DNA of 64,000 nt from Bilabrum cf. latius (Eukaryota): positions 620,001-684,000 of the forward strand of contig OZ237764.1 in NCBI GenBank assembly GCA_965178125.1, given 5' to 3'. Both the position numbers and the translations under genes were made by a program. Below are positions 9,811 through 56,002 of this stretch, piece by piece (within the stretch, counting starts at the first letter, position 1; each line of letters opens with the position of its first letter). The notes under the pieces were generated by a model. It made no database searches. It saw only the letters and a list, made by a program, of their open reading frames with translations, and was not told the origin of the DNA.

Positions 9811-10581
9811 ATGAACTTTAATAATTATGTCATTGAAAATCCCGTCCTAATGAAGCAGATTTATAAGGCTACAGACCATATTACAGATAGTACGCAAAAA
9901 ATTTTAGAGACCATTACTACGTATGTAGATTTAGGTGGTAAGTTTACAAAACCTAAATTAATTAATAAAAATATAGTTAGTGATATTAAAGAGAAAAAAG
10001 CCGTCAAAAAACCCAAGAAAGAAGAGAAACAGAAGACACAACACGATAATAACGACCAGCTTGAAATTAACCAAACATACATTCTAGATAAATTTAATGA
10101 CTATAAACCACAGAATAATAAAATTTATAATGATGTAGATGATTTACAACCGCCAGAATTAATTAGATAGACCGCAATAGATGAAAAATTAACCGGTATG
10201 GAGCCTGACAGTGAAAGTGAAATAAACAGCGTTAGTACCGAACAAGACTAGATAGAAGCAGAAACTGATGACGAAATGATACCTGAGGAAGAGAAAAAAA
10301 TAATAGGTGATTTAATTAAATTAGAGAATCAGGATTATAGGTATAAAGTGTCCGTAAATGGAAATGATGTATTTTTTGGTGAAATTAATTTACCCGATGT
10401 AGAGGCTCTTAAGAAATAGTTTAGCCCTCGTAAATTACAAATTATGATTTGTAAAATTAAAAGGAATTATAATATTAATAATAGCGATGATATCAACAGC
10501 CCTGAGTTTTGGAATAGCCGGGTATATTTGACCCTTGATGTGAAGGCCGAACACGAAAAACTACAAGATATCTATAATTAA
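9811..10581 (+). CDS. Virophage hypothetical protein (256 aa with TAG=Gln)
   Basis: Open frame through 3 TAG to TAA; C-terminal NSPEFWNSRVYL resembles SPAFWSRFVLW in the 21176 gene. Confidence 0.7.
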
Positions 10582-10944
10582 AAGCCCCTACAACTTAATA
10601 AACGGGCTAGAATTTAATAAAATATTTTAATATAACCGCTATATTAAAATCTATACGATGGCTATATCCACAAATTGCGTATAATTATATAGTATTTCTA
10701 GCAAAATGTGGATGTAGGGCCTCTTGTGAAGGTGGTATGGGACCTTTAGATAATTTTTTAAAATAGTTCCATCACTTGAGAAGGTGTTAAAATACACCAT
10801 TCATATCTCAATCTATTTTTTAGGGCTAAATGGCAAAAATCACCTTTTACCTTCATTAATTATTATAGCCCCTTTAAGCCCTCTATAATTAAATATGGCG
10901 TTTAAAATAGTTTAAAAATATATTTCTAATAATATATATAGAAA

Positions 10945-13900
10945 ATGAATAATAAAAACCTCGTTAGTTTCCCCATCAAGCACAATCAAAAAATACCTGA
11001 TGTTAAAAGCTGGCGATATCTCACCAAACCCGAGCCTAAACGATTTAATAATCAGAATATGGCAATTATCACCGGAGAAATTAATAATATAACCGTGTTT
11101 GATATTGATTCATATAAATGGAGCGATAAGAAGGAGCATTTATTCATCAAGAAATTTTCAGATGACTTTGTGAAGCGGTTCAACACATTCACGGTTAAAA
11201 CAGCGGGTGGAGGGTATCATTTATATTTTAAATATGATTAGAATATATTAACTACCACCAATAGAGATATTGACGTTGATATTCGTAATGATGGGGCTTA
11301 TGTAGTGGCACCACCAAGTGGCATAAATGGGTCAAAATACGAAGTTATTAATAATGTAGAAATAAAAAAATGTCCTAAGGAGCTTTATAAATTTTATGAA
11401 AAGTATATTATTAAATCCTCTAAGAAATCCAACGTAAAAGGGGCGAGTAAAAGGATATCAAAAATTGATAATCAAGATGTGAATAACTGTATGATGAAAT
11501 TCATTTTAAATGGTAAAGACTGGTCAATTATATTAAATAGATTAGATAAGAAATATTTAAATAATTATAGTGATTGGTATAAAGCAACCCTAGCGAGTAA
11601 ATATTTAGGATTTAAGAAGGAATGGTAGGAGTGGAGCAAGAAGGGCAATAAATACGACTACCACAAAAATAACAAGGTGTGGAACTCTATCCATTATTTT
11701 GATAAGTTAAAAACCTTTAATTTAGTTAATTCAATAATTTAGAATGATAAAAGTTTAAAGGCATTTGTGAAAGATAAGTATATTTCAAAGTGTTATTATC
11801 GTCCTTATGACGAGAATATTAACGGGTATACAGAAATTAATAAACCTAAATTAGATGATATAGAGAAGCCCGAACGATTTTTTAAATATGAATATAATTA
11901 TGTGGTAAAAAGTGATACAGGAACAGGTAAAACAACAGCATTTAAGAAATACATTAAACAGGTTCAAACGCCGTTCTTATCCATTGTATCCCGTGTATGT
12001 TTAGGCACAGAGCAATACGAGAGCTTTTTAAATGAAGATATTAAATGTGAGTTCTACCAGAATAAAACTTTTGATTTTGGATAGTCTCTTATTATTACGC
12101 CGGAAAGTATCCCCCAAATTGTGAATTATGATTTTTCTAAATACATCGTATTTTTGGATGAATTCAATAGTATTATAGAGCATATATTAAGTTCTACCAC
12201 GATGAATAATAATAGGGTTCTTGTATTATTTATTATTTTAAAAATGATCCGAACGTGTAAATAGTTTATTGCTGTAGATGCTGACATATCCCAGATAGCG
12301 ATGAAATTTTTAAAATGTGCTGGAGTAGAATTTAGCTTCATTAAGAATAAATATAAGCATTTTAAGGACGTAAAAGTATATTTTGAAAAAGACCAATAGA
12401 AATTTTACGATAAATTAAAAAGTGAAGATAAATTTATACTGGCGTGTGATAGCAAGAAGAACGCAGATACATTTTATAAAATGTTATGTAAAGATGGTAT
12501 AGAGGACGTTAAATTAATTACTAGTGATTTATTACCTGATGAGGATGTGAGCTTAGATAAATATGATAAAATTATATTTAGTCCTAAAGTCATTTACGGA
12601 TTAGATAGTGTAATGGAGCGCCCAGTGTATGGATTATATAAAGGAAAAACGATTCTACCGCCGTAGATGATGTAGCAACTGGCAAGATGTAGAAATCCCG
12701 AATATATGAATATATATTTTGAAGATGTAAAATCCATTTATCCAAGATATGAGAATTTAAAGGAGGTATAGACGACCTTAAATATGGAAATTAACGCATA
12801 GACAGATTTATATACTAAATTAGAAAAATACGAAAAAAGGATAATGTAGGAGAATGATATTGACATTGATATTTTTGAGGGAGAAGATGATGAAGAGATA
12901 GCCCATAAAGCAATGATAGAGGCATCATATAAGGTTTATTTACCACTCAAGAAATTATATAATTTCAAATGTGATACATACGAAACAAATAAATATATTC
13001 ATTTATAGCTTATTCTTAAAAACAGGGGTGCCGATGTATAGGTGGATAAGGAATTACCACAACGAATGAATAAATAGCAGATGAAAGAGGCGACAATGGA
13101 GATACTACAAGAATAGATTAATTCATTTGATGTAGAGAACGACCATATAAAAAGAAGAATTGAAATTTTAGGGCTACCAGAGATAGCCATAACGGAGGAT
13201 ATTAAAATGTTATTAATTGATAATTACAAATTAATGAATTATTTTAATTATGCTAATTTTAAGAGAAAAGATAAATATAAACTAATGACAGAATTAAAGG
13301 ATAGAAAGGATTTTAAGGATGAGAAAGCAAAAAGTACAAAGAATAAAATAATCATATTGTAGGAGATGTTATAGACGCTTAAATTGAATAAATTTGATTT
13401 AAGTTATACACGTAAAAATGAGAAATCCATTAAATATATAGAAATGGGTAAAAGATATGTAGAAGTAAGCGGGGCGAGATTATAGAAGCCAATAGAAACC
13501 GATAGTGAATTACACGGGGCAATAGTAAAATTATATAAGTAGTTATTTGGAAATATCAAAACCTCCTGGAGTATGGGGAATAAAAAGGATAAAAAGGATA
13601 GAGAATTAAGAATTAAATTCACCAAGGAGAAAGAATTATTTGATGAAGTTTATTAATGCTAACGCCGAATGGGGTTCGGGGTTGATGTGGCGATGCGTTC
13701 GAGACTCGAACACAGGCTCCGGTCTACCAACGCGAGGTTGCAACCGCCAGTGCGACCAGCAGCTTGCGAGGCATTCCCTCGTCTCCTTCCTTAGGGAAGG
13801 GGGCGGGGCAGCGCGGCAGTGGCCGTTCCGGCTCATGCCGTTGTTTTGTTTAGTATTTATGTTCGGTTTGGTGCTCACACGGGTAGTGCTTAACGCCGTG

Positions 13901-16900
13901 TCAACTATCGCGCGTGTCCATGTGGGTCCGTTCGGCCTACATCGTGCATCCATCCTCGGCCTACTTGGCGCTCCAGTGGATCCGAACCAATATTTACTTC
14001 GATGTGATCCATCTTTCTCGGCACATCGATGGGACTTCGGTCCGTTGGGCTCGGCTGCTGCTTGCGCCACGGTCTCCCGGGTGTGTGCTCGCCGATGGCA
14101 TTTTCGCGCGATCTCTGCGTCCCTCCCTTTCGTACTTGTTCCTACGCACGGCCATGCATGTAGAAACATATTCAAATGGTTCGATCTTACGGTTTTCCGA
14201 CGACCCAGCCTTTCCGTTGGCGAGGCGCGCTCCGCTTTTCCGGTCGCACCTCGAAAGCAACCACTTTCGGCCAGATCAGCCATCGTACCAGGATACAGCA
14301 CGATTTGCACCTATCGAGTGACTGATCATTTGAATTGTGCAGGGTGGGCACGTAGTCAGCTTGGACTCCATCGTCCTCTGGCTGCCGACGACAGCAGGCT
14401 CGGTGAGCCTTCGTCATCGTCCAGACAACCCTGCAGCTCGCACCAGGCGTGCGTGCAGGAGGTCGAAGCGAGCAGCGCGGTGTGGCGCAGCTCGTAGACG
14501 GAGGCCGGCCTGGAGCCTGGTCGGTTGACGCAGCATCAGTGGTGGGCTGGTGCTGTGTCTTGCGCGGGTGCCGGAGCTTGGCCACGGTGGCCTGCTGCTC
14601 CCTGCGCCCCACGCGCAGTTCCTCCCGCTCCGGCGGATGAGTCAGCAGTGGCACGTTGCCACCGGCTGACGACGACAGCAGGCTCGGTGAGCCTTCGTCA
14701 TCGTCCAGAAAACCCTGCAGCTCGCACCAGGCGTGCGTGCAGGAGGTCGAAGCGAGCAGCGCGGTGTGGCGCAGCTCGTAGACGGAGGCCGGCCTGGAGC
14801 CTGGTCGGTTGACGCAGCATCAGTGGTGGGCTGGTGCTGTGTCTTTGCGCGGGTGCCGGAGCTTGGCCACGATGGCCTGCTGCTCCCTGCGCCCCACGCG
14901 CAGTTCCTCCCGCTCCGGCGGATGAGTCAGCAGTGGCACGTTGCCACCGGCTGACGACGACAGCAGGCTCGGTGAGCCTTCGTCATCGTCCAGAAAACCC
15001 TGCAGCTCGCACCAGGCGTGCGTGCAGGAGGTCGAAGCGAGCAGCGCGGTGTGGCGCAGCTCGTAGACGGAGGCCGGCCTGGAGCCTGGTCGGTTGCCGC
15101 AGCATCAGTGGTGGGCTGGTGCTGTGTCTTGCGCGGGTGCCGGAGCCTGGCCACGATGGCCTGCTGCTCCCTGCGCCCACGCGCAGTTCCTCCCGCTCCG
15201 GCGGATGAGTCAGCAGTGGCACGTTGCCACCGGCTGACGACGACAGCAGGCTCGGTGAGCCTTCGTCATCGTCCAGAAAACCCTGCAGCTCGCACCAGGC
15301 GTGCGTGCAGGAGGTCGAAGCGAGCAGCGCGGTGTGGCGCAGCTCGTAGACGGAGGCCGGCCTGGAGCCTGGTCGGTTGACGCAGCATCAGTGGTGGGCT
15401 GGTGCTGTGTCTTGCGCGGGTGCCGGAGCTTGGCCACGATGGCCTGCTGCTCCCTGTGCCCCACGCGCAGTTCCTCCCGCTCCGGCGGATGAGTCAGCAG
15501 TGGCGCGTTGCCACCGGCTGACGACGACAGCAGGCTCGGTGAGCCTTCGTCATCGTCCAGAAAACCCTGCAGCTCGCACCAGGCGTGCGTGCAGGAGGTC
15601 GAAGCGAGCAGCGCGGTGTGGCGCAGCTCGTAGACGGAGGCCGGCCTGGAGCCTGGTCGGTTGCCGCAGCATCAGTGGTGGGCTGGTGCTGTGTCTTGCG
15701 CGGGTGCCGGAGCTGGGCCACGATGGCCTGCTGCTCCCTGCGCCCCACGCGCAGTTCCTCCCGCTCCGGCGGATGAGTCAGCAGTGGCACGTTGCCACCG
15801 GCTGACGACGACAGCAGGCTCGATGAGCCTTCGTCATCGTCCAGAAAACCCTGCAGCTCGCACCAGGCGTGCGTGCAGGAGGTCGAAGCGAGCAGCGCGG
15901 TGTGGCGCAGCTCGTAGACGGAGGCCGGCCTGGAGCCTGGTCGGTTGACGCAGCATCAGTGGTGGGCTGGTGCTGTGCCTTGCGCGGGTGCCGGAGCCTC
16001 GCCACGATGGCCTGCTGCTCCCTGCGCCCCACGCGCAGTTCCTCCCGCTCCGGCGGATGAGTCAGCAGTGGCACGTTGCCACCGGCTGACGACGACAGCA
16101 GGCTCGATGAGCCTTCGTCATCGTCCAGAAAACCCTGCAGCTCGCACCAGGCGTGCGTGCAGGAGGTCGAAGCGAGCAGCGCGGTGTGGCGCAGCTCGTA
16201 GACGGAGGCCGGCCTGGAGCCTGGTCGGTTGACGCAGCATCAGTGGTGGGCTGGTGTTGTGTCTTGCGTGGGTGCCGGAGCCTGGCCACGGTGGCCTGCT
16301 GCTCCCTGCGCCCCACGCGCAGTTCCTCCCGCTCCGGCGGATGAGTCAGCAGTGGCACGTTGCCACCGGCTGACGACGACAGCAGGCTCGGTGAGCCTTC
16401 GTCATCGTCCAGAAAACCCTGCAGCTCGCACCAGGCGTGCGTGCAGGAGGTCGAAGCGAGCAGCGCGGTGTGGCGCAGCTCGTAGACGGAGGCCGGCCTG
16501 GAGCCTGGTCGGTTGACGCAGCATCAGTGGTGGGCTGGTGCTGTGTCTTTGCGCGGGTGCCGGAGCTTGGCCACGATGGCCTGCTGCTCCCTGCGCCCCA
16601 CGCGCAGTTCCTCCCGCTCCGGCGGATGAGTCAGCAGTGGCACGTTGCCACCGGCTGACGACGACAGCAGGCTCGGTGAGCCTTCGTCATCGTCCAGAAA
16701 ACCCTGCAGCTCGCACCAGGCGTGCGTGCAGGAGGTCGAAGCGAGCAGCGCGGTGTGGCGCAGCTCGTAGACGGAGGCCGGCCTGGAGCCTGGTCGGTTG
16801 ACGCAGCATCAGTGGTGGGCTGGTGCTGTGTCTTGCGCGGGTGCCGGAGCCTGGCCACGATGGCCTGCTGCTCCCTGCGCCCCACGCGCAGTTCCTCCCG

Positions 16901-19900
16901 CTCCGGCGGATGAGTCAGCAGTGGCACGTTGCCACCGGCTGACGACGACAGCAGGCTCGGTGAGCCTTCGTCATCGTCCAGAAAACCCTGCAGCTCGCAC
17001 CAGGCGTGCGTGCAGGAGGTTGAAGCGAGCAGCGCGGTGTGGCGCAGCTCGTAGACGGAGGCCGGCCTGGAGCCTGGTCGGTTGCCGCAGCATCAGTGGT
17101 GGGCTGGTGCTGCGTCTTTGCGCGGGTGCCGGAGCTTGGCCACGATGGCCTGCTGCTCCCTGCGCCCCACGCGCAGTTCCTCCCGCTCCGGCGGATGAGT
17201 CAGCAGTGGCACGTTGCCACCGACTGACGACGACAGCAGGCTCGGTGAGCCTTCGTCATCGTCCAGAAAACCCTGCAGCTCGCACCAGGCGTGCGTGCAG
17301 GAGGTCGAAGCGAGCAGCGCGGTGTGGCGCAGCTCGTAGACGGAGGCCGGCCTGGAGCCTGGTCGGTTGACGCAGCATCAGTGGTGGGCTGGTGCTGTGT
17401 CTTGCGCGGGTGCCGGAGCCTGGCCACGGTGGCCTGCTGCTCCCTGCGCCCCACGCGCAGTTCTCCCGCTCCGGCGGATGAGTCAGCAGTGGCACGTTGC
17501 CACCGGCTGACGACGACAGCAGGCTCGGTGAGCCTTCGTCATCGTCCAGAAAACCCTGCAGCTCGCACCAGGCGTGCGTGCAGGAGGTCGAAGCGAGCAG
17601 CGCGGTGTGGCGCAGCTCGTAGACGGAGGCCGGCCTGGAGCCTGGTCGGTTGACGCAGCATCAGTGGTGGGCTGGTGCTGTGTCTTTGCGCGGGTGCCGG
17701 AGCTTGGCCACGATGGCCTGCTGCTGCCTGCGCCCCACGCGCAGTTCTCCCGCTCCGGCGAATGAGTCAGCAGTGGCACGTTGCCACCGACTGACGACGA
17801 CAGCAGGCTCGGTGAGCCTTCGTCATCGTCCAGAAAACCCTGCAGCTCGCACCAGGCGTGCGTGCAGGAGGTCGAAGCGAGCAGCGCGGTGTGGCGCAGC
17901 TCGTAGACGGAGGCCGGCCTGGAGCCTGGTCGGTTGCCGCAGCATCAGTGGTGGGCTGGTGCTGTGTCTTGCGCGGGTGCCGGAGCCTGGCCACGATGGC
18001 CTGCTGCTCCCTGCGCCCCACGCGCAGTTCTCCCGCTCCGGCGGATGAGTCAGCAGGGGCACGTTGCCACCGACTGACGACGACAGCAGGCTCGGTGAGC
18101 CTTCGTCATCGTCCAGAAAACCCTGCAGCTCGCACCAGGCGTGCGTGCAGGAGGTCGAAGCGAGCAGCGCGGTGTGGCGCAGCTCGTAGACGGAGGCCGG
18201 CCTGGAGCCTGGTCGGTTGACGCAGCATCAGTGGTGGGCTGGTGCTGTGTCTTTGCGCGGGTGCCGGAGCTTGGCCACGATGGCCTGCTGCTCCCTGCGC
18301 CCCACGCGCAGTTCCTCCCGCTCCGGCGGATGAGTCAGCAGTGGCACGTTGCCACCGGCTGACGACGACAGCAGGCTCGGTGAGCCTTCGTCATCGTCCA
18401 GAAAACCCTGCAGCTCGCACCAGGCGTGCGTGCAGGAGGTTGAAGCGAGCAGCGCGGTGTGGCGCAGCTCGTAGACGGAGGCCGGCCTGGAGCCTGGTCG
18501 GTTGACGCAGCATCAGTGGTGGGCTGGTGCTGTGTCTTTGCGCGGGTGCCGGAGCTTGGCCACGATGGCCTGCTGCTCCCTGCGCCCCACGCGCAGTTCC
18601 TCCCGCTCCGGCGGATGAGTCAGCAGTGGCACGTTGCCACCGGCTGACGACGACAGCAGGCTCGGTGAGCCTTCGTCATCGTCCAGAAAACCCTGCAGCT
18701 CGCACCAGGCGTGCGTGCAGGAGGTCGAAGCGAGCAGCGCGGTGTGGCGCAGCTCGTAGACGGAGGCCGGCCTGGAGCCTGGTCGGTTGCCGCAGCATCA
18801 GTGGTGGGCTGGTGCTGTGTCTTGCGCGGGTGCCGGAGCTTGGCCACGGTGGCCTGCTGCTCCCTGCGCCCCACGCGCAGTTCCTCCCGCTCCGGCGGAT
18901 GAGTCAGCAGTGGCACGTTGCCACCGGCTGACGACGACAGCAGGCTCGGTGAGCCTTCGTCATCGTCCAGAAAACCCTGCAGCTCGCACCAGGCGTGCAT
19001 GCAGGAGGTCGAAGCGAGCAGCGCGGTGTGGCGCAGCTCGTAGACGGAGGCCGGCCTGGAGCCTGGTCGGTTGACGCAGCATCAGTGGTGGGCTGGTGCT
19101 GTGTCTTTGCGCGGGTGCCGGAGCCTGGCCACGATGGCCTGCTGCTCCCTGCGCCCACGCGCAGTTCTCCCGCTCCGGCGGATGAGTCAGCAGTGGCACG
19201 TTGCCATTGACTGACGCCCCCTCGTCAGGCTTGCTCCCTACATCCAGTAGTTTGGAGCACCCTGATTTCCCGCTTTGCGGATGAGTCACTGCGGGTATAT
19301 TCTCCGGCAGCTGACGATCTCTTGGGCCACATGGTTCCTCGCCCAGGAACAGGCATGTAGACACAGTGGTAGCCACTCCACTGGCCTACTTGCAGGTTCC
19401 CAATCGACTGGTTCTTCCACGGATGTCGCCGTACGTACCTCCTTTGGCACAACCCGACTGCATAGTCGATGAGTTGTGTCAACGGACTCAACGCCGGCGC
19501 GGTTTCGTCCCTGACCTACGGTCGTCGACTCGACTACCGCTATCATCGACTGTTTCCACACGTCCTACAGATGGTCCCGACAACCAGTCAACTTCAATGA
19601 TCAAGGCATGGCGATGTAAGACTTGGCTGATAGTGGAGCGGACGCGCAACCGACGGTTCTGGTGCTTTCCAACCGACGTCGGCGCGCGGTCTGCTCAGAT
19701 TGGCCATGCTTTGCCCATGTCTTGATTGAACTGGAGACGAAGTGTGTCGAGTAAGCATCGTTGCATCATAATGCTAACGCCGAATGGGGTTCGGGGTTGA
19801 TGTGGCGATGCGTTCGAGACTCGAACACAGGCTCCGGTCTACCAACGCGAGGTTGCAACCGCCAGTGCGACCAGCAGCTTGCGAGGCATTCCCTCGTCTC

Positions 19901-45274: not shown

Positions 45275-45892
45275 TCATAGACGACTTCCAAGACCGAAGG
45301 TTTTCCGGACGAATTCCTCCAGTTGCTAAAAGGATGAATAGACACAGTACTAACTCTAATGTAATCCAGCGATTAAATTCGTTCTTGAGCGTTCTACAGA
45401 CAATAAGTCCCCCGATTTTTTCCCTTCACGGATTTCCTCAAAAAGACTGTGAGAAGGCACACACACAAAAATTGAACTTTCCTTAAATAAATCTTTCGCT
45501 AATTCCAACGAACCAACCATAACAATTAAACGCCTGGATTTCTTTGTGAGCCAATCCGCTTTAATTTTTTCATACACTAATCTTGACTAAGAGTAATAAA
45601 AGAGACGGTGGGTGCTTTCATCACCATCAATTAGCATTTTCTCCATTTTCTATTTTTCCTACCCTGAAATCTAACCATTTACGCATTCATCTAAGTCAAT
45701 GACCAAAGTGTCTTTATCAACACTTTCTATAGAGCGACACAAAGTAGTTTTCCCAGAGCCTTTTGGAACAACCACGCAGGATTTCTGTTTCTAAGTTCCG
45801 TCTTTCGTCCACCAAGAATATAGACACCGACTACCAGAATACATTAAAGGAGCCAAAGTCCCAGCAACCATTACAGCAGATGATACTGACAT
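45275..45892 (-). CDS. P-loop protein with hydrophobic N-terminus (inner)
   Basis: VVVPKGSGKTTL, LVIDLDE; homolog of 35208-35825. Confidence 0.7.
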
Positions 45893-45947
45893 TGTTTTGA
45901 TATACTATATACCAAGACAAATATTTATTGGTTTACCCTTTTCATAC

Positions 45948-47714: not shown

Positions 47715-47792
47715 TTTTGTTTTCCTTGTATATTATATACAACGAATAAAATTCTATGGGGTCGCGTCCCCATCCGACGAATTATCATTTTT

Positions 47793-48908
47793 TCAAAGTC
47801 CTTTCCGTTTCTTAAATAAAAACTTCACACTCACACTTCCGTGGCGTAAATAAAGAGGTCTTAGATTTGAATAATTGTCTTTCCAATATAGATTAAACTA
47901 AATCCTATCTACTGAATGTGTATCTAAAAAATCAATTTCGTGGAGAATATGGGGCTGGTATTGAAGAACCTGCTAATTAACTGTTTCAGTATCATCTAAT
48001 ACACAATCCATATCCACTAATAAACTCTCGGTCCCTGAACCTGAATTTTGAACTGTATTAGTGGATTGTCCATAGGCGGATTTCTAGGATATTGCCTCAC
48101 TCCTCACTGGAAGACTTGAAGATGTGAAAACTATTCCGCGAAAAATCTAAAACTACACTAAACTCCCTCGTTCCTAGGTCATCATTAATCTGTAGTCTCC
48201 CGTTGGGTTTCCCTCGAAGTATGCCTAAGGTTCATATTTTCCAACAGAAGAGCCATCATCGAATAAAACATTGGTTCCTAGGGTTTTGAATAGAATACTG
48301 GCGTATAAGTCGTCATCTTGGATATCCATTCGTTCCATAGGAAAACCCGTCATCAGTTCGTTAAGGGCTTCATTCAACACTAATTTAAATTTCTGTCCTG
48401 AGTTTTCCTCGTCGTAATCGGGGTTTGCTACTAAACTGAACTTTCCATCTTTAAAGAGTAAAACCGGAACTGATGTAATATCCGCTGATAAAGCATTCTA
48501 TATGGTTTCGTTGAATAAATCAACAAAATGCTACACGGAATACATATAATAATAAGGAACAAACTACATAGGATTGGAAAAAGATGGTTGGTTTTCCCCT
48601 GTTAACTAGGGTCTCCACTGAATGCTTGAGGTCCACAAACTTACTCCGTCTTCATCTGTAATGCTTATTCTATACACCGTTTGATTAGGATTTGAAGATG
48701 GATTTTTCACTTTATCGGTTTCTATGTGTGGAACCCATAAAGGTATTGAATTGGTGCTTATGGAAAACCGGAATACTGACATCGTATAATCACCAACATC
48801 CTTATCTAATAATGGCTACTTGCGGGTTTCGCTATAGGTCGCTGGTTGGAAAGTATCTTCGTTATTTCGTATGTTTGCGGTAATGTAAAATCGGTCTGGA
48901 GAACTCAT
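47793..48908 (-). CDS. Penton/minor capsid protein (371 aa, inner)
   Basis: ATYSETRK*PLLD..DYDVSIFRFSI; YWKD..PLYL..SVKFLFKK. Confidence 0.85.
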
Positions 48909-48964
48909 TTTACTATAGACGTTTATAATTATGGGGTGGGTTTGATTACTTTTCTAAAGTATAA

Positions 48965-49456
48965 TTAAGATGGTGTAATAAGTGAACCTGACACTAAGGA
49001 TTTCCAACTAGATGTAGAAGAACTGCCAATCGCCACATAGACATCGTTGTCGCTTCCATTATACACTAAAGCGCCCTTGAACTTTCGCTCTGCTGACGTA
49101 TTAATAGGGGTAGAAGCGTCAGCCAATGTAGCTCCAGCAACCTCACTCAGCCCAACAACACCCTCTTGAGAAGTCTTGAATGAACCAACTAGTGAAATAT
49201 CGCATCTTTCTCCTTCTTCGCTCATACTGAACTGACAACCAGCAGACGCTCCGTTTTTTCCAAACCGTAGAACAGTTTCACCCCACTCCATATAAGGCTC
49301 TCCGTCTTTGAATTCAATACTTGGATTGCCTATGACTGCTCCCGTAGAGTTAGTAATTGCGGACACTTTAATTGCGTCGCTACTCACAACATTACACGTA
49401 ATAGTTTGAGACATAAGGTCTAGACTGTTCTTAGATAGAAGATTTGAGACTGACAT
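48965..49456 (-). CDS. Putative fibre/spike-like protein (inner)
   Basis: N-terminal/central similarity to 20601-21122 with a different C-terminus. Confidence 0.5.
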   Translation of the reverse strand: MSVSNLLSKNSLDLMSQTITCNVVSSDAIKVSAITNSTGAVIGNPSIEFKDGEPYMEWGETVLRFGKNGASAGCQFSMSEEGERCDISLVGSFKTSQEGVVGLSEVAGATLADASTPINTSAERKFKGALVYNGSDNDVYVAIGSSSTSSWKSLVSGSLITPS

Positions 49457-49521
49457 TTTATAGTATATCCACAGATATAATTTTTATCAGGTTGCCAAAA
49501 GATGTATATAAGAGGTTTTGG

Positions 49522-50703
49522 TCAATCTTTTCCTAAAAGATGTAATAGTTCCATAGCAACCTAATGATGAATATTTTTAGTGCTTCCTTTTACTTTCTTG
49601 GCTACATTCATTGCTGTATCATAGATAATTCTTTTTCCACCTGTTAATCCTTTCCCCTTTTTTGGTTTTCCACTTTCTCCTACAGTCATTGCGCGTGATG
49701 GTGGGTCTTCTAAATCAGGCTACTACATTCCATAGGGCGGACTAAACCCCGTAAATCGCTACACAGGTCTAGTAGCACGTTTTCCAATTCCCTGCTCAAT
49801 TTCCATCCTACTCGGCATATCATAGTACTCACCAGTTTCTGGGTCCCACGCCCCCGGAGTGCTTCCTTGCGGTAGTGGTCTTTCATTGCTCGCTGCGGCT
49901 AATATGGCATCTAAGTCTTTTGATGTTTTTGACGCATTACTACTTGAACCCTCTTGAAAATGCTAAAACATATTTGTCTGCCCCTGTGATGTTCTTTGTG
50001 AGAAATTCTTTCCCTATTCTAAATCCCACGCTATTCGTTGTTTTTCAGTTAAGGGTCTGTCTTGTTGTATTCTTTCTCTGGCTCTTTCCAATAACTATTT
50101 ATACGCACCCGAAGACCTTTTTGGAAGCTGTACTTGTGTTGGAGCGGAAAACGTGTTTCTTCTTGTTGTTCGAGCAGGTGTTTGTAAAGATGTTGGCTAC
50201 TAATCAATTCCCAACATTCCCTACGGTATTCGTTGTCCGGATGCCTCCTATATAACTTTCCCTAATTCTAAGAGTTGTTTTCTATCCTCAGCTGGAACTC
50301 TCTGCAGTCCTTCGTATCCTTTCCTTTGAAACCTCTCTATGTTAACGTATTGACGGGCGAGTTGTTGCTTCATTTGTGGAGACATATTGATATTACCAAC
50401 AAAATCCTTCAATGCTTTCACTGCTGGACTTACATTTTTACCCTCAATAATACCTTTCATTATACCAGATATTGACTTAGATATGATTTCCTCGTTGCTT
50501 TGGTCTGCCTATTTTCTCTACGCTGGAGTTCCATACCTTCCACTTTCTTTTAATCGTTCAATTTTTGCCCTTTTCCTTATAAAATCACTATATTCTGTTT
50601 CTAAATCTACGTCGTCTCTTGCCTATAAATCTAACATTTTAGCATTGTCCAGTTCCCTCTCTAGGGCTTGCTGAATAAGAGCATTCACTTTAGCAGTTTT
50701 CAT
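49522..50703 (-). CDS. Hypothetical protein (393 aa, inner)
   Basis: Contains track ORF 50248-50460; appears open across TAG to TGA. Confidence 0.6.
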
Positions 50704-50763
50704 TTACTATAAGCTTTTATAAAAAGCTTGGCCAAAAAATAAATTATGTTCATGTATAGTATA

Positions 50764-51003
50764 ATGGATATTGATAAGTGGATTATATAGAGAACCAAAC
50801 AACTCGCGCTATAGAAAGAACAAGACGCTTTAAATAGAGTTAAAAACAAACATATTAAAGTTGGAAAAGGCCGTAGTAAGCCTAAGCGGAAAGTGAGCGC
50901 CAAAATGAAACGCCGCAATAAACTTGTAAAAATGGTGATGTAGTAGACTGGTATGAGTTTACCTCAAGCAAGTCGGTATATACGAGAATAGAATATTATT
51001 TAA
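50764..51003 (+). CDS. Small basic putative core protein (inner)
   Basis: RRNKLVKMVM**TGMSLPQASRYIRE; similar to the C-terminus of 32626-33015. Confidence 0.6.
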
Positions 51004-51032
51004 AGAAACTTTTAGAAAAAGTTTGACCAAAA

Positions 51033-51935
51033 TTACATAAGGTAAGCCTACTTTTCTCCTAATAAATACCTCGGGTAATTCCTGTGGACACATACCCACC
51101 TAGAAGGCATTTTTAAGACTTTAGAGATTTCTTGTTTCTCAAGTCCTATATAATTTTTTAGTAAATACCTTAGAGAATGTGCGGAAGAACACTAAGGGAA
51201 TATAACGAACTTATGACTTTCCGCAAGAATAATTCGGGTACTTTTATAGTTGGTAGATAAATGACTTGTGATTAATACAGAAGTATTTGAATGTCTTCCA
51301 ACCTATAATATTTCATCCTGTAAATGATTGAGGGCTTCCCTTAACTTCTTATCTTTGATTGTATCAATATCATCCAAGATTACTAAGGCGTCCCTTAATT
51401 CCTAATGAATATCAATCGGGTTCTCCACCAGTTCCTCATTTAAAATAATCCTTTTCAGTCCTTTCACTTCATCTAAGACTTTATCCTACTATACTCGTGA
51501 AAATAAAATAATTCTCCTGTTTGGAAACATTCTATGATAATTCTTAGCATACTTGGAAACCCAAGTAGACTTCCCAGCACCTGATGGTGCGGTGATATAT
51601 ATTACCTCTCTTCCGTTTAAATTTGGTAATGATTGGAATTCACCCTATTTTAATGTAATCTCTTTATGTTTCTTTTCCTATGCTTTTTCATACAAGTATT
51701 TGATGTCTTCGTCTAGGGGTTCGACCTGTTTGATTAAGTGTCGTGCTAATAAATCCATTTTCCTCTGCGGAAATCGTTTCCCTGTAAGTGATGATACTTG
51801 AAAATCCTAAAATGACATACTATCATCTCCAAATTGGTTGTCTGTGTTTTCCGCCGTGTATAAAATACGTTTTCCGTGAGTGTCATATGCGATGGGTGTT
51901 GATTTTGTAGTTTCCTTCCAAGAAAAATGAGCCAT
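51033..51935 (-). CDS. Packaging ATPase (inner)
   Basis: YITAPSGAGKST, LVILDDID, IGRH. Confidence 0.9.
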
Positions 51936-52124
51936 TTTAGTGTATTTACTATATGTTTTTATTTTTTCTAAAGTGTTTTGTCTTTTTGTTGAAAACTTAT
52001 TTTGAATGATTGTCTTTTATGCTATCCACAAATTCCAAAACGGATTTTGTAGAAATACTTCTACGCTTAAATAGTGGTTAAGAGAATTCATCTCCCCCAA
52101 TATATGTTTCTATAATAAATATAT

Positions 52125-52661
52125 ATGGATTATGCTCTTAGCGATAGTGATATTCGTGTTCTCCTCCAAACTCCACCAAATATTAAGGGGTTTCTTCCTA
52201 CGTCGGTAAACATCGTTCCATATACAGAATTAGGATAGTACAATAGTATTGATGGATTATTTAGTCGTTGTAATTGTTGTATCATTCTATACCAAGAAGA
52301 AATAAATTCTGGACACTGGGTGTGCTTATTTAAGCGTAATAAAACAATATACTTCTTTGACAGTTATGGAATTCGTCCTGATAGGCAATAGCACACAATG
52401 AGTGAAAGCGTGCGGAAACGTTTTTATGAAGACCCTGAGTTAATATATTTAATGTATCATTCTCCGTATAAGATTGACTATAACCCATATTAGTTTTAGG
52501 CGGATGGAATGGATATAGCAACCTGCGGGAGACATTGTATAGTTCGTCTTTGGAATAGGGGAAAAAACGCTGATTAGTATAAAAAGTGGGTGGATAAGGT
52601 TTGTAAGAAACATACATTAAATCCTGATGAATTAGTGTATTTATTGACGTGTCATTTATGA
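52125..52661 (+). CDS. Maturation cysteine protease (inner)
   Basis: SGHWVCL, FFDSYG, YNPY*F*ADGMDIATCGRHC. Confidence 0.9.
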
Positions 52662-52940
52662 ACTCCAAAGGTAAAAATGTGAGAAGAACTTTGGGGTTCT
52701 TGGTTTTACTTCGATACCGTGTCGTTTGAAGTATCTAAATTGGCGGTCCGTATCTAAATGATTTAAATGGCTGTAATACCCTATTCTATCGTAAAATTGC
52801 TAATACCGCCTATCACCAAACGATGTAATATATTCATCATTTTCGTCAAAAACATCATACTTCTTATTCTTGCGTCTTGAGGGTGCTTTAAATAGAAAAT
52901 TCTCAACAACCTTTTCAAAATCGTAGGTATGTAGCTTCAT
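52656..52940 (-). CDS. Conserved small virophage/NCLDV-type protein (inner)
   Basis: SRRKNKKY..SFGDRRY*QF..YFKRH..PKFFSHFYLW; matches the C-terminal domain of 21176-21883. Confidence 0.65.
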
Positions 52941-53540
52941 AAGTACTTTATAGTATAGTCTTCTACTTATATCAAAGCCCGAGCTTCTTGTATTCCTTTA
53001 GTTTTTCGTGTAATTTTTTCCAAATACGTGGATTAATTTGCTTGACAATATGCTCTATCATCAACTCCTTTAAAAATGGGTTCATTTACTATAGTGATAT
53101 AGAATGGTCTTAATTATCATCTCTTGGGAAATCCAATCTTTGAAAAAGATATCAAAAGAGCGGAGGGCAAAGCCCGAGCATCTTGGAAAATTAATTTTAA
53201 TATTTCTTTGTATCCTATATTGTCAAAATTTTTCAATCAATTTTTGTGTTTTTAATTGGAAAACAATTATAATTTGTTTTTTATTTTCCTTTTAATTTTT
53301 ATGGTGGCATCATAGGAATTACAACATTTAATTTTAATCTTTGAAAAAGATATCAAAAGAGCGGAGGGCAAAGCCCGAGCATCTTGGGAACTTAATTTAT
53401 TTTTTCTAAGTCTCTTATAATTGACCTGTAAAATCTCTCAATTTTAATCTTTGAAAAAGATATCAAAAGAGCGGAGGGCAAAGCCCGAGCATCTTGGGGG
53501 ACTTTTCCAAAGGGACTTAAAATACGTTTTCGTTTTCCTT

Positions 53541-54107
53541 ATAATGTATCATCTCTTGGGTAATCGGTTTGGTTGCTTCGGAGAACAATTTAGTCGCTTG
53601 GGAAATCCTTGGGAAATCCTTGGGAAATCCTTGGTCGGTTCATCGGTCGGTTCATCGGTCGGTTTATCGGTTTGTCGCTTGGGAACATACCTCGGTCTCT
53701 TGATAAAATACCTTGTTCTCTTGGGGAAATCCTCGGTTGGTCTCTTGGTCTCTTGGGAATTCATCCTTCCGTTCCTACAGCAAACACAGAGATATTTTGG
53801 ACACTTGGTTAATTTCTTCATTTTTTCCTACTTTACTAAAACATCTCTGTCTTTGCTGTTAGAGTTTATAAGGGGGTTAAATATTAGAATTCTTCAATTT
53901 ACCCCTACTTCGTAGGAGTAAATTTTATATCTGAAAATGGGTACATAGAGGGGTTCTATAGGGGTTCTTGGGGAACCCCCTGTGAAATCATTTAGGTTTA
54001 TAGGGGAAACACTTGAGTTGCTAAATATGCCTTTAAAGGAGGGGCGAGCGTAGCGTAGCCCTCGTCCTAAACGCTTGGTGTACCTACCACCACCTGTTGT
54101 CCCCCCC
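53541..54107 (-). repeat. Right TIR of inner virophage
   Basis: Inverted copy of 37597-38199. Confidence 0.9.
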
Positions 54108-54512
54108 CATCTCCACTTTTATGTCAATCGTATATATTTATGTTGAGAAGCACAAACCATCAATGTTAAAGCATTTTCAACTTGATGACCTTCGTGTCCC
54201 TCCAGATTGTAATGAACGACTTAAAAAAAGAGTATTAAGTGAATTTGAAGAAATTGATTATATATCATATTTCGTTCAACCATTTAGAATAATACACAAG
54301 CTAAATGAAGAAAATGTTGAATGCCTAAGTGAAGACTTAAATGATACCGTAGCCATAGATTTATTGGTTAAAAAAGAGAAGGAAGCCATTGAGAAATCAA
54401 TAAAGAAATAGAAGGATGACATCATCAAAAAGGCTATAGATGACTTTATCTTACCCAAGGATTAAACTATATATTAATAATAATAATAATAGTATTATTA
54501 AAATTCAAAAAT

Positions 54513-54860
54513 TTATTCTAAAAACTCAATATCAAACCATTCATTTGAATCATCATATTCTTCAGCATACATCAACGATAATTCTATATACTCTTCTAAT
54601 TCACTATTAGTAAGGTTATCAATTTCTTCTTCTTTCAATAGTTTGAAATCGGTTCCGTTGTCATCATTAAAACTTTCAACTTGACTTTCTGCTTCCTTTT
54701 TATATTCTTCTTTCCAATTATCATTCCATACAACTCTCTTCGCTTGGTCTTTTAAAGTGTCAGTATAAAGCTTTTGTGCTTCTTCCTTATTATTAAACTT
54801 TTTAACCCAGTGTGTATGATAACATTCACTACCCCACGCTAATGATACAATATAAACCAT
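54513..54860 (-). CDS. Acidic hypothetical protein (outer)
   Basis: 115-aa ORF, ATG to TAA, AT-rich leader like neighbouring genes. Confidence 0.6.
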   Translation of the reverse strand: MVYIVSLAWGSECYHTHWVKKFNNKEEAQKLYTDTLKDQAKRVVWNDNWKEEYKKEAESQVESFNDDNGTDFKLLKEEEIDNLTNSELEEYIELSLMYAEEYDDSNEWFDIEFLE

Positions 54861-54901
54861 ATCTATAATAATTAAAAGTAAAATAATTATTATAATAAAA
54901 C

Positions 54902-56002
54902 TTAATTAAAATTATCCTCTATCTCTTCTCGCTCCTCGTTATCCAATACCCATTCTAATCTTGGAGGGTGCCACGCTCTAGCTATTAACTCCTCTTTATA
55001 CTTCTTGGTTTGTTCTATTGTTTTATCTTTTCTTTTTTTATAATATGGTATCAGTGTTGTGGAATAATCAATTCTAATATCATTAATTCCATTTTCTAGA
55101 TGGTTAAGCGAGGTACAATCGTAAAATATATAATAATCCATATCATCAACATTACTTAAATCCCAATTGTTCAATGGTTGATTGAATGATTTACAATTAC
55201 TAAACATTTCACCCATACTGTTAACTTTAGAAACATTCCAATTATTCAGTGGTTGATTAAACTTTACACATTCTCTAAACATACCATACATATTGTTCAC
55301 ATTTGAAACATTCCAATTATTCAGTGGCTAATTGAATGATTCACAGTTATGAAATAAAACACTCATATTTTTCACATATGAAACGTCCCAATCGTTCAGG
55401 GGTTGATTAAATGAATCACAATCAAAAAATAAACCTTCCATATCAAAAACACTAGACACATCCCAATCAGTCAATGGTTGATTAAATAGTTTACAGTATC
55501 TAAACATAAAATTATTTTTTTTTACATTTGAAACGTTCCAATTATTCAGTGGTTGATTGAATGATTTACAATATTCAAACATCCCAGACATACCCCAAAC
55601 ATTTGAAACATTCCAAGTATTAAGTGGTTGATTAAATAGTTTACAATATTTAAACATACCACTCATAGTCTCAACATTTGAAACATCCCAATTATTAAGT
55701 GATTGATTAAATGACTTACACCCAAGGAACATAAAAGCCATATTTTCTACGTTTGAAACATCCCAAGTATTCAAAGGTTCATTAAATTTTTTCTTATATC
55801 TAAATAAAGCACTCATATCTGTAATAAATGTTGTTACTATTTCACAAGGCTTCTTATCTTTTAATAAATCTTTTAAATGGTCTTTACACCTTGCTATGTA
55901 ATAGGTTTGACCTTCAAAATAGACGTTCCAGTTTATCCTTCTATAATAATCTTTCGGTTGTGTAGCTTTCAAGGTTCCATTTTCCCATTTTAATAATTCC
56001 AT
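54902..56002 (-). CDS. DUF285/BspA-like repeat protein (outer)
   Basis: Tandem 25-aa FNQPLNxWxVSxVxxMxxMF repeats; two track ORFs joined by one TAG at 55328-55330. Confidence 0.9.

What the first reader, a model, noticed from the sequence alone, without database searches (positions are those of the whole stretch)
9811..56002. Both virophages use TAG as a sense codon (Gln) while TAA/TGA remain stops
Seen: most genes of both elements contain in-frame TAG (more than 15 in the primase-helicase alone). In the frames I translated there were no internal TAA/TGA (apart from the Ngaro junction) or frameshifts, and all reconstructed genes end in TAA or TGA. Reading TAG through yields full-length MCP, penton, protease, ATPase, integrase and PolB. 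Established: UAG=Gln with UAA as stop is rare in eukaryotic systems (e.g. Iotanema) and occurs in some phages. Inference: these are intact, recoded virophages that standard gene callers would call pseudogenes. I do not know of this being described for virophages.
Basis: partly seen in the sequence, partly recalled or inferred. Interest (0 to 1): 0.95.

Follow-up and report, generated by a model that had tools for sequence, protein, structure and literature searches.

The report
Virophages written with TAG as glutamine
Two virophage genomes, one inserted inside the other in a protist chromosome, only make sense if the stop codon TAG is read as glutamine, which points to an unusual genetic code in the cell or in the giant virus they depend on.

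Summary
The AT-rich insert 9110-56498 is a 24-kb virophage (E1). It carries a second, nested 16.5-kb virophage (E2, 37597-54107) and a Ngaro-like retroelement (13654-~20130).

Under the standard code, ORFs of at least 150 aa cover 5,820 of 40,969 nt. With TAG as sense they cover 31,971 nt. With TAA or TGA as sense they cover 11,973 and 5,868 nt. The 33 ORFs hold 191 in-frame TAG and end in TAA (19) or TGA (14).

Three tests that do not depend on database annotation give TAG = Gln:
- Columns of 231 standard-code virophage loci.
- Codon exchange with a recoded relative.
- TAG:CAG ratios equal to the TTR:CTR ratios of leucine.

A CAG-specific mutation process and assembly error are both rejected. 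Three metagenome contigs of the E2 lineage are recoded in the same way. The other 221 of 224 screened loci are not.

I could not test whether the host itself reads UAG as Gln (my estimate ~0.7) or whether a helper giant virus supplies the decoding (~0.13). No host genome was available, and the host-like ORFs in the window give only a weak hint. My paper searches found no description of TAG-recoded virophages. Verdict: real, and a new variant of a known kind.

The parts
9110..56498 (.). E1, the outer endogenous virophage. It is 47.4 kb as found and about 24.4 kb without its two insertions. A 5-nt target-site duplication TCGCA lies at 9105-9109 and 56499-56503.
   Evidence: Inverted repeat 9109-9531 / 56499-56073, 428 nt, 96.7%. 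Junctions and uninterrupted 'empty' sites in host repeat copies 1 and 3. GC 0.30 against 0.59 in the flanks.
9110..9531 (.). E1 left terminal inverted repeat
56073..56498 (.). E1 right terminal inverted repeat
10945..13656 (+). E1 primase-helicase, 903 aa, 19 in-frame TAG. The Ngaro-like insertion cuts it 22 codons before its natural stop.
   Evidence: Pfam Prim-Pol 6.9e-16 and PriCT_2 3.2e-6. 3,998 homologues, the best aligned over residues 5-902. TAG codon 577 sits in a column that is Q in 80 of 80 homologues, and codon 440 in one that is Q in 51 of 80.
20131..20199 (+). Displaced last 22 codons plus stop of the E1 primase-helicase. It contains 2 more TAG.
   Evidence: Joining in frame restores a tail that matches the tail of homologue P0011.
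13654..20134 (.). GC-rich Ngaro-like non-autonomous retroelement. Layout: A1 13654-13849, a 17 x 284-bp satellite at 14276-19220, B1 19623-19772, A2 19769-19964, B2 19985-20134.
   Evidence: Direct repeats D16 (196 nt, 100%), D19 (150 nt, 99%) and D1-D6. GC 0.66. No long ORF apart from frames through the satellite. The A1-[..]-B1A2B2 layout is as described for Ngaro in PMC8547959.
22078..23577 (-). E1 protein-primed PolB-like gene, 499 aa, 5 TAG
   Evidence: BLASTP against E2 PolB gives 4e-21 over 317 aa. No Pfam hit.
26755..28644 (-). E1 major capsid protein, 629 aa, 8 TAG
   Evidence: BLASTP against E2 MCP gives 23% identity over 568 aa, E 2e-12. Pfam MCP_V20_C is weak, 0.004.
28716..29669 (-). 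E1 penton (minor capsid) protein, 317 aa, 5 TAG
   Evidence: Pfam V18-19 5.3e-7
30006..30581 (-). E1 cysteine-protease-like gene, 191 aa, 8 TAG. TAG codon 140 is a conserved Gln 9 residues before the Cys of a C-G motif.
   Evidence: 44 tblastn matches in standard-code virophage loci. The column is Q in 35 of 39. Motif seen. No Pfam or PDB family hit.
30590..31690 (-). E1 P-loop ATPase, 366 aa, 3 TAG
   Evidence: Walker A visible in the translation. 29 tblastn matches in virophage loci. No Pfam hit.
35862..37019 (-). E1 rve integrase, 385 aa, 7 TAG
   Evidence: Pfam rve 8.8e-12
54902..56002 (-). E1 DUF285/FNIP-repeat protein, 366 aa, 1 TAG among 11 Gln codons
   Evidence: Pfam DUF285 2e-128
37597..54107 (.). 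E2, the inner virophage, 16,511 bp, nested in E1. A 5-nt target-site duplication CATCT lies at 37592-37596 and 54108-54112.
   Evidence: Inverted repeats I1, I3, I4 and I6, 99-100%. Junctions. A joint 37591->54108 that skips 16,516 nt, i.e. E1 without E2, is present in contigs of all 4 runs laid.
38342..39397 (+). E2 rve integrase with chromodomain, 351 aa, 5 TAG
   Evidence: Pfam rve 3.8e-9 and Chromo 6e-6
39455..41116 (+). E2 D5-like helicase, 553 aa, 10 TAG
   Evidence: Pfam DUF5906 3.3e-15. 57% identical end to end with the 547-aa L083 protein.
41174..43015 (+). E2 protein-primed PolB, 613 aa, 4 TAG
   Evidence: Pfam DNA_pol_B_2 1.3e-5, just under its cut-off. 61% identical to the 613-aa L083 protein.
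45948..47714 (-). E2 major capsid protein, 588 aa, 14 TAG
   Evidence: Pfam MCP_V20_C 2.2e-27 and Sputnik_MCP_1st 1.9e-22. TAG codon 384 sits in a column that is Q in 109 of 153 standard-code homologues.
47793..48908 (-). E2 penton protein, 371 aa, 12 TAG
   Evidence: Pfam V18-19 1.1e-10. TAG codon 245 column is Q in 64 of 81.
51033..51935 (-). E2 packaging-type P-loop ATPase, 300 aa, 9 TAG
   Evidence: Weak Pfam AAA-type hits, best 9.4e-6. 71 tblastn matches. 61% identical to the L083 protein.
52125..52661 (+). E2 cysteine-protease-like gene, 178 aa, 5 TAG. TAG codon 125 is the conserved Gln before the C-G motif.
   Evidence: Column is Q in 50 of 59. Motif. 55% identical end to end with the L083 protein. 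No Pfam or PDB family hit.
6382..8433 (+). GC-rich orphan ORF of the host repeat, 683 codons if TAG is read through, 3 TAG. Paralogues lie at 1215-3280 and 60913-62961.
   Evidence: TAG is conserved in all three copies at codons 107 and 165, and TAG<->CAG differences occur at codons 97, 143 and 207. No homologue found.

Best explanation
The window holds two endogenous virophages of distant lineages; their MCPs are 23% identical. E2 integrated into E1, and E1 integrated into a tandemly repeated host locus. Each insertion has terminal inverted repeats and a 5-nt target-site duplication, as expected for their rve integrases. All their gene classes are written in a code where UAG is glutamine and UAA and UGA are the only stops.

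Shown: TAG is a fully synonymous Gln codon, at mutational equilibrium with CAG, in both elements and in environmental relatives of E2.

Inferred (about 0.7): the elements use this code because the cytoplasm where they are translated reads UAG as Gln all the time. That would mean the host protist has a UAG-only reassignment, presumably a tRNA-Gln(CUA) plus an eRF1 that no longer recognises UAG. The virophages, and by implication their helper giant virus, have drifted into the host's code. This parallels the polinton-like insertions of Streblomastix strix, which follow that host's code.
For: 1. Specificity. Only TAG-sense opens the genes: 31,971 nt in ORFs against 5,820 nt (standard), 11,973 nt (TAA-sense) and 5,868 nt (TGA-sense).

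2. Identity of the residue, using only DNA loci that I verified as standard-code (231 loci). Over 86 TAG sites the best amino acid is Q (log-likelihood -26.7; next is D at -57.2). The same method decodes 56 of 57 sense codons correctly. TAG sites behave like CAA+CAG sites: 72 sites, 18 with a majority residue, 6 of them Q, against 78, 17 and 6. Mean Q fraction is 0.145 against 0.178, while other codon pairs give 0.03-0.07. TAG encodes Gln that is invariant or nearly so in the primase-helicase (80/80), both proteases (35/39 and 50/59), the MCP (109/153) and the penton (64/81).

3. Codon exchange with recoded contig L083. 36% of 87 E2 TAG sites align to a Gln-family codon (TAG 11, CAA 11, CAG 9). 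The figures are 32% for CAA, 40% for CAG, 4% for GAA, 7% for AAA and 0% for TAT.

4. Equilibrium. In E2, TAG/CAG is 2.35, TTG/CTG 2.35 and TTA/CTA 2.29. In E1, TAG/CAG is 4.74, TTA/CTA 4.73 and TTG/CTG 3.00. About 844 in-frame TAA would be expected if TAA were equally tolerated; none is seen. TAG positions are uniform along genes (KS p=0.22).

5. Long-term selection. Seven E2 genes match L083 genes end to end and two more in part, at 44-61% identity, with no TAA or TGA in either genome. Among the 27 coding variants shown between runs, 17 are synonymous and 10 are not. They include CAG->TAG and TAG->CAG.

6. Host-wide reading. Two unrelated lineages in one genome share the code. GC-rich host-like ORFs carry in-frame TAG that is conserved across paralogues, with TAG<->CAG differences and TAG/CAG ratios near their TTG/CTG ratios. 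Stop-creating changes are skewed towards TAG, 8 of 9, p about 0.02.

7. Precedent. Viral insertions follow the host's code in S. strix (PMC10120064, passages read).
Against: The host's own code was not tested:
- No genome is held for this window.
- The only conserved host gene, nucleoredoxin-like with 383 codons, has no TAG, although only about one would be expected.
- The host-like ORFs with TAG are orphans and show nearly neutral change, 34:80 and 41:114 synonymous to non-synonymous.
- Their limits were set by TAA/TGA, which biases the stop count. In the third ORF family, copy 1 has 2 TAA/TGA where copy 3 is open.

Other points against or neutral:
- No tRNA(CUA), and no tRNA at all, is in the window or in L081-L084.
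- 12 of the 18 conserved TAG columns have a non-Q majority residue (D 5, E 4, G, F, L). CAA+CAG shows much the same, 11 of 17.
- TAG use differs between genes: E1 heterogeneity p=0.0002, or 0.014 without one CAA-repeat gene.
- The 90%-identical database protein P0001, with Q at 13 of 13 TAG sites, is not independent evidence. Database proteins seem to have been called with TAG=Q.
Confidence: 0.7

Rival explanations
1. Helper-virus-gated translation. The host uses the standard code. UAG is read as Gln only in cells infected by a giant virus that brings a suppressor tRNA-Gln(CUA), with or without a release-factor variant. The integrated virophages would then be untranslatable until the giant virus arrives, as in TAG-recoded phages.
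For: Virophage genes are expressed only with a giant virus (established knowledge of mavirus-type virophages). Giant viruses carry tRNAs and translation factors, and some giant-virus MAGs are best read with alternative codes (PMC13524828, passages read). TAG=Gln recoding that does not match the host is known in phages (PMC9523058, abstract only). The only conserved host gene in the window has no TAG. TAG use is uneven: the GIY-YIG-like and FNIP genes together have 1 TAG in 19 Gln codons.
Against: TAG occurs in every functional class, including both integrases, the replication genes and the capsid genes. There is no TAG-free 'early' set of the kind recoded phages have. TAG:CAG is at full equilibrium, which needs efficient decoding; 19 TAG in one gene cannot be passed by leaky suppression. 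GC-rich host-like ORFs also carry conserved in-frame TAG. No suppressor tRNA is on the virophages. No giant virus with such a system was seen here.
Confidence: 0.13
2. Foreign elements. Both virophages evolved in another host-virus system that reads UAG as Gln. They were integrated here by virion-borne integrase and cannot be translated in this host.
For: Recoded relatives of E2 exist in environmental metagenomes, so such particles circulate. The host's code is untested.
Against: Two unrelated lineages, a nested insertion, E1 copies with and without E2, and presence in runs of two coded organisms and two studies all point to repeated activity in this lineage. The helper giant virus would have to infect both kinds of host. 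Host-like ORFs tolerate TAG.
Confidence: 0.07
3. TAG is passed by programmed readthrough, or it encodes a residue other than Gln.
For: 12 of the 18 conserved TAG columns have a non-Q majority residue. The log-likelihood for Q is negative in absolute terms.
Against: Q beats the next residue by about 30 log units. TAG sites are indistinguishable from CAA/CAG sites in column make-up and in codon exchange. There are 191 sites, up to 19 per gene, spread uniformly, which readthrough cannot serve.
Confidence: 0.03
4. Dead pseudogenes or an artefact. CAG->TAG changes arose from a context-specific C-to-T process (methyl-cytosine deamination at CWG, RIP-like) or from assembly errors.
For: Every TAG corresponds to a former Gln codon under this idea, and CAG->TAG is one transition. 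The elements are AT-rich.
Against: Out of frame, CAG/TAG equals CAA/TAA (192/275 vs 262/357, and 55/200 vs 172/664), so C before AG is not specially mutated. 62 in-frame and 247 out-of-frame CAG remain. There are no CAA->TAA or other TAA/TGA nonsense changes, although about 844 TAA would be expected at the TAG rate. No frameshifts appear against L083. Contigs of 4 runs from 2 studies reproduce the sequence.
Confidence: 0.02

Closest known systems
Polinton-like endogenous viral elements of Streblomastix strix (Bellas et al. 2023, PMC10120064; passages read)
   Same: Integrated capsid-encoding DNA virus elements in a protist genome whose genes contain reassigned stop codons read as glutamine. 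The authors interpret this as a virus following its host's code.
   Different: There both TAA and TAG are Gln (code 6), the host's code is known, and the elements are polinton-like viruses of a metamonad. Here only TAG is reassigned, TAA is strictly a stop, the elements are virophages with Sputnik-type MCP and penton, and the host's code is unknown.
Endogenous mavirus-like elements (EMALEs) with Ngaro insertions in Cafeteria burkhardae (Hackl et al. 2021, PMC8547959; passages read)
   Same: AT-rich virophage genomes with TIRs, rve integrase and protein-primed PolB inside a GC-rich flagellate genome. They are interrupted by GC-rich elements with the A1-[..]-B1A2B2 repeat layout.
   Different: Cafeteria elements use the standard code, and that host has about 70% GC. 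Here the flanks have 59% GC, the code is TAG=Gln, and the Ngaro-like element has a 284-bp satellite where its ORFs should be.
TAG-to-glutamine recoded bacteriophages, 'code 15' (crAss-like and Lak phages; PMC9523058, abstract only)
   Same: The same single reassignment: TAG=Gln, with TAA and TGA as stops.
   Different: Those are bacterial viruses whose code differs from their host's, with recoding concentrated in late genes and often a phage suppressor tRNA. Here it is a eukaryotic virus-of-a-virus system, every gene class contains TAG, and no tRNA is present.
Nuclear codes with UAG alone reassigned (Iotanema spirale UAG=Gln, PMC5304391; phyllopharyngean ciliates, PMC11687900; search listings and abstract starts only)
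   Same: UAG is decoded as an amino acid while UAA stays a stop. This is what the host-wide reading would require.
   Different: Those are cellular lineages defined from their own genes. No host gene evidence of that quality exists here.
Giant-virus MAGs best read with alternative codes (PMC13524828, passages read) and a virophage clade with an ochre suppressor tRNA (Paez-Espino et al. 2019, PMC6905037, passage read)
   Same: Signs that members of giant virus-virophage systems live in hosts with reassigned stops.
   Different: The clear giant-virus case is code 6. The virophage hint concerns TAA and rests on a tRNA, not on recoded genes. Code 15 appears only in a figure legend for giant viruses. 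The supplements that might list cases were closed.

Membership tests
Virophage (Sputnik/mavirus-type) | Double jelly-roll major capsid protein of the Sputnik V20 type | tested here: met
   E2: Pfam MCP_V20_C 2.2e-27 and Sputnik_MCP_1st 1.9e-22. E1: Pfam only 0.004, but BLASTP against E2 MCP gives 2e-12 over 568 aa. The fold itself was not modelled.
Virophage (Sputnik/mavirus-type) | Penton (minor capsid) protein V18/19 | tested here: met
   E1 5.3e-7 and E2 1.1e-10
Virophage (Sputnik/mavirus-type) | Maturation cysteine protease | tested here: inconclusive
   No Pfam or PDB family hit. An H...D...Q...C-G motif order is seen by eye. There are 44 and 71 tblastn matches in virophage loci.
Virophage (Sputnik/mavirus-type) | FtsK/HerA-type packaging ATPase | tested here: inconclusive
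   Walker A is present. E2 gives weak generic AAA Pfam hits and E1 gives none. There are 29 and 71 tblastn matches in virophage loci.
Virophage (Sputnik/mavirus-type) | Replication depends on a giant virus | not testable with these tools
   No helper virus sequence and no expression data. No RNA run was listed.
Endogenous mavirus-like element | TIRs, rve integrase, protein-primed PolB and a short target-site duplication | tested here: met
   TIRs. rve 8.8e-12 and 3.8e-9. PolB: E2 Pfam 1.3e-5 (below cut-off), E1 against E2 4e-21. 5-nt duplications and empty sites.
UAG=Gln-only genetic code (NCBI table 15 pattern) | In-frame TAG at glutamine positions | tested here: met
UAG=Gln-only genetic code (NCBI table 15 pattern) | TAA and TGA remain stops | tested here: met
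   Neither TAA-sense nor TGA-sense opens the genes. No in-frame TAA where about 844 would be expected if tolerated. Gene ends coincide with those of homologues.
UAG=Gln-only genetic code (NCBI table 15 pattern) | A tRNA with anticodon CUA and a release factor that ignores UAG | not testable with these tools
   No tRNA is in the window or in L081-L084. The host genome and the helper virus are not available.
Host-matched recoded viral insertion (S. strix type) | The host's own genes use the same code | tested here: inconclusive
   Orphan host-like ORFs carry conserved in-frame TAG, and the stop-type skew has p about 0.02-0.03 with ascertainment bias. The one conserved host gene is uninformative.
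Ngaro (DIRS-order) retrotransposon | Split direct repeats A1-[..]-B1A2B2 | tested here: met
   A 196 nt at 100% and B 150 nt at 99%, in the right order
Ngaro (DIRS-order) retrotransposon | Reverse transcriptase / RNase H and tyrosine recombinase ORFs | tested here: not met
   The interior is a 17 x 284-bp satellite. There is no real ORF, and the one long frame has no Pfam hit. It is at best a non-autonomous derivative.

The most novel reading that the evidence does not exclude
The host reads UAG as stop. The virophages are written in a private code that becomes readable only when a giant virus delivers a UAG-decoding tRNA, with or without a release-factor variant. That would be a translational lock keeping integrated virophages silent until the virus they parasitise arrives. 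It would be the first stop-codon recoding used as a gate in a eukaryotic virus system.
Probability: 0.12. Interest if true: 0.95.

Novelty: new variant of a known kind. Interest (0 to 1): 0.72.

Why it matters
Virophages are translated by the host ribosome in cells infected by a giant virus. A virophage that needs UAG=Gln therefore reports on the code of that three-partner system. There are two possibilities:
- The host is a GC-rich flagellate-like eukaryote with the rare UAG-only reassignment, and at least two virophage lineages and their giant virus have adapted to it.
- The decoding comes from the giant virus, which would be a new kind of control.

There is also a practical consequence. Standard gene callers break such elements into fragments, so surveys of endogenous and metagenomic virophages will score them as decayed or miss them. 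In my screen, 3 of 224 virophage-bearing contigs showed the same recoding. All 3 came from general metagenome contigs and none from the 155 screened loci of the viral contig collection.

The equality of TAG:CAG with TTR:CTR is a simple test, free of annotation, for a fully established Gln reassignment.

Tried and rejected
- P0001 (90% identical MCP, Q at 13 of 13 TAG sites) first looked like decisive proof of Gln. I rejected it as independent evidence after P0002 proved 579/587 identical to the recoded L082 MCP with Q at all 6 of its TAG sites.
- Host identity and code: the 683-codon host ORF has no homologue. Pfam finds nothing in 6 host-like ORFs other than the nucleoredoxin-like gene. The right flank 56500-59300 has no convincing ORF. 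The protein atlas only says 'eukaryote, nucleoredoxin-like'.
- The E1 MCP has no word-sharing homologue. A single-protein scan of viral contigs with the E2 MCP found nothing.
- Expression: no RNA holder was listed for 43331-52661. This is no evidence either way.
- Suppressor tRNA or other RNA families: none in the window, L082 or L083.
- PDB sequence search for the two protease-like proteins gave only spurious WD40 and other hits.
- A recoded E1-lineage relative: 0 of 75 viral-collection loci with a primase-helicase relative are recoded.
- Papers checked for a known host or a known recoded virophage, without result: Phaeocystales, Antarctic viruses, cryptophyte PLVs, Halocafeteria, Cafeteria genomes.
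- Only 40 of 259 variant positions were shown by read laying, so the synonymous/non-synonymous count covers that subset only.

Full report
**Anatomy.**
The window has GC-rich flanks (GC 0.58-0.59) around an AT-rich block (GC 0.30-0.36 in its virophage parts). The flanks belong to a host repeat of about 5.2 kb, present three times at 1, 5217 and 59748. The repeat carries a nucleoredoxin-like gene (Pfam Thioredoxin_8 7e-10; eukaryotic look-alikes) and two orphan ORFs.

The AT-rich block is bounded by inverted repeats 9109-9531 / 56499-56073 (428 nt, 96.7%). The sequence TCGCA is duplicated at both ends. The uninterrupted target is seen in repeat copies 1 and 3. This outer element is E1 (9110-56498).

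Inside E1, a second pair of inverted repeats (99-100% identical) and a duplicated CATCT delimit E2 (37597-54107). Contigs from all four public runs laid on the stretch contain the joint 37591->54108, which skips 16,516 nt. So E1 copies without E2 exist.

A GC-rich element (13654 to about 20130) has the split direct repeats A1-[..]-B1A2B2 that define Ngaro elements (PMC8547959). Its interior is a 17-copy 284-bp satellite with no reverse transcriptase or recombinase ORF. It cuts the E1 primase-helicase 22 codons before its stop. The displaced tail (20131-20199) matches the tail of homologue P0011.

**The observation.**
- Under the standard code, no ORF of 300 aa exists in 40,969 nt of virophage DNA. 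ORFs of at least 150 aa cover 5,820 nt.
- With TAG as sense there are 16 ORFs of at least 300 aa, and ORFs of at least 150 aa cover 31,971 nt.
- TAA-sense gives 11,973 nt and TGA-sense 5,868 nt.
- 33 ORFs (10,894 codons) hold 191 in-frame TAG, 62 CAG and 274 CAA. They end in TAA (19) or TGA (14).

Products read through TAG:
- Sputnik-type MCP and penton in both elements.
- rve integrases in both.
- A Prim-Pol primase-helicase in E1.
- A D5-like helicase in E2.
- PolB-like polymerases, P-loop ATPases and protease-like proteins.

The two MCPs are 23% identical, so these are two distant lineages.

**Is TAG glutamine?**
A 90%-identical database MCP (P0001) has Q at all 13 TAG sites it covers. I do not count this. 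P0002 is 579/587 identical to the MCP of metagenome contig L082 and has Q at all six of that contig's TAG codons. The database proteins were evidently called with TAG=Q.

The independent tests are these:
1. **Protein homologues of the primase-helicase.** Among 80 homologues, TAG columns are most enriched for Q (4.96-fold; CAA 9.2, CAG 3.3). One TAG sits in a column that is Q in 80 of 80. Two of the 80, at 45-50% identity, might themselves be recoded.
2. **tblastn against 231 verified standard-code loci.** Over 86 TAG sites, Q scores -26.7 and the next residue (D) -57.2. The method assigns 56 of 57 sense codons correctly.
3. **Column make-up.** TAG sites and CAA+CAG sites look alike: 6 Q among 18 majority columns against 6 among 17. 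Mean Q fraction is 0.145 against 0.178. Twelve conserved TAG columns are not Q in the homologues (D 5, E 4, G, F, L), about as for ordinary Gln codons.
4. **Codon exchange with L083.** TAG exchanges with TAG, CAA or CAG at 36% of sites. CAA does so at 32% and CAG at 40%. GAA, AAA and TAT do so at 4%, 7% and 0%.

**Is it selection or decay?**
- Out of frame, CAG/TAG equals CAA/TAA (0.70 vs 0.73, and 0.28 vs 0.26), so no process targets C before AG.
- In frame, TAG is common while TAA is absent. About 844 TAA would be expected if it were tolerated equally.
- TAG/CAG equals the T/C ratio at the synonymous first position of leucine codons in each element separately. E2: 2.35 against 2.35 and 2.29. 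E1: 4.74 against 3.00 and 4.73. That is the signature of a long-established synonymous codon.
- Seven E2 proteins match L083 proteins end to end and two more in part, at 44-61% identity.
- Of the 40 best-supported variants between runs (of 259), 27 are coding. 17 are synonymous and 10 are not. They include one CAG->TAG and one TAG->CAG.
- A 5.7-kb contig of a run from a second study has 10 differences, none at the 28 TAG codons of the four genes it spans.

**How common is it?**
Of 149 loci of at least 3 kb that hold relatives of the E2 MCP, three are recoded in the same way (L081-L083, MCP 59% identical). Their ORF cover is 0.09-0.14 under the standard code and 0.80-0.94 with TAG as sense. The short L084 also carries in-frame TAG. 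The median standard-code cover of all 149 loci is 0.76. None of 75 loci holding relatives of the E1 primase-helicase is recoded.

**Whose code is it?**
This is the open point. No host genome was available.

In the window, the orphan 683-codon ORF of the host repeat has TAG conserved in all three copies at two codons. It also shows TAG<->CAG differences at three codons and one TAA in one copy. A second orphan family has in-frame TAG in two copies. The skew towards TAG among stop-creating changes has p of about 0.02-0.03. However, the ORF limits were defined by TAA/TGA, and these ORFs evolve almost neutrally.

I put the host-wide code at about 0.7, because two unrelated virophage lineages share the code and are at equilibrium with it. 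The alternatives are a helper virus that supplies the decoding (0.13), foreign elements that cannot be translated here (0.07), another residue or readthrough (0.03), and decay or artefact (0.02).

**Literature.**
Five searches combining virophage, polinton or giant virus with code terms found no TAG-recoded virophage. A sixth, on UAG reassignment in stramenopile nuclear genomes, found none. The nearest cases are:
- S. strix insertions that use that host's TAA/TAG=Gln code.
- A virophage clade with an ochre suppressor tRNA.
- Giant-virus MAGs that are best read with alternative codes.

Supplements were closed and might list further cases.

Noticed in passing
13654-20134: The Ngaro-like element keeps the A1/B1A2B2 repeats. 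Its interior has been replaced by 17 tandem copies of a 284-bp GC-rich unit, and it has no reverse transcriptase or recombinase ORF.
   Followed up: partly
37591/54108, seen in runs X1, X2, X3 and X6: Contigs of all four runs join E1 across the E2 site, so E1 copies with and without E2 coexist. E2 interrupts a 145-codon E1 frame that spans the joint.
   Followed up: partly
1-9109 and 56499-64000: The host locus is a repeat of about 5.2 kb (three copies) with a nucleoredoxin-like gene and two orphan ORF families. E1 sits in the 5' part of one orphan ORF (8442-9167, minus strand). The orphan ORFs carry in-frame TAG.
   Followed up: partly
9305-9444, 10640-10777, 24743-24881, 29809-29945, 56158-56299: A sequence of about 140 nt recurs at 74-82% identity in E1 intergenic regions and in its terminal repeats, in both orientations. 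It may be a shared promoter or regulatory module.
   Followed up: no
26028-26687 and 54902-56002: Two E1 genes have 1 TAG among 19 Gln codons, where about a third would be expected. One has a GIY-YIG-like motif, judged by eye only. The other is a DUF285/FNIP-repeat protein. They may be recent acquisitions from a TAG-poor source. TAG use is heterogeneous across E1 genes (p=0.0002, or 0.014 without the CAA-repeat gene).
   Followed up: partly
P0002 against L082:6039-7799: The large protein database holds proteins translated with TAG=Q. P0002 is 579/587 identical to the recoded L082 MCP and has Q at all 6 of its TAG codons. A Q at a TAG site in such hits is therefore not independent evidence.
   Followed up: yes
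22078-23997, minus strand: The E1 PolB may be split. A 113-aa ORF lies upstream of the 499-aa polymerase ORF, in the same frame, separated by 26 codons with 4 TAA/TGA. It shows two short colinear matches (E 0.06-0.09) to the N-terminus of the 613-aa E2 PolB.
   Followed up: partly
30006-30581 (codon 140) and 52125-52661 (codon 125): In both protease-like genes, the conserved Gln 9 residues before the Cys-Gly motif is encoded by TAG. It could be the oxyanion-hole residue of adenain/Ulp1-type proteases; that role is recalled, not tested.
   Followed up: partly
33093-35162: A 689-aa low-complexity protein rich in Q, P and E has 65 CAA and 13 TAG and no family match. Its codon use departs from the rest of E1.
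   Followed up: no
L083:1-13791: This metagenome contig of about 15 kb is virophage-like throughout (GC 0.40-0.50, no GC-rich flank). It shares most of its genes with E2 (9 matched pairs). Its TAG/CAG ratio (0.67) is below its TTG/CTG ratio (1.37), so it is less saturated with TAG than the window's elements.
   Followed up: partly
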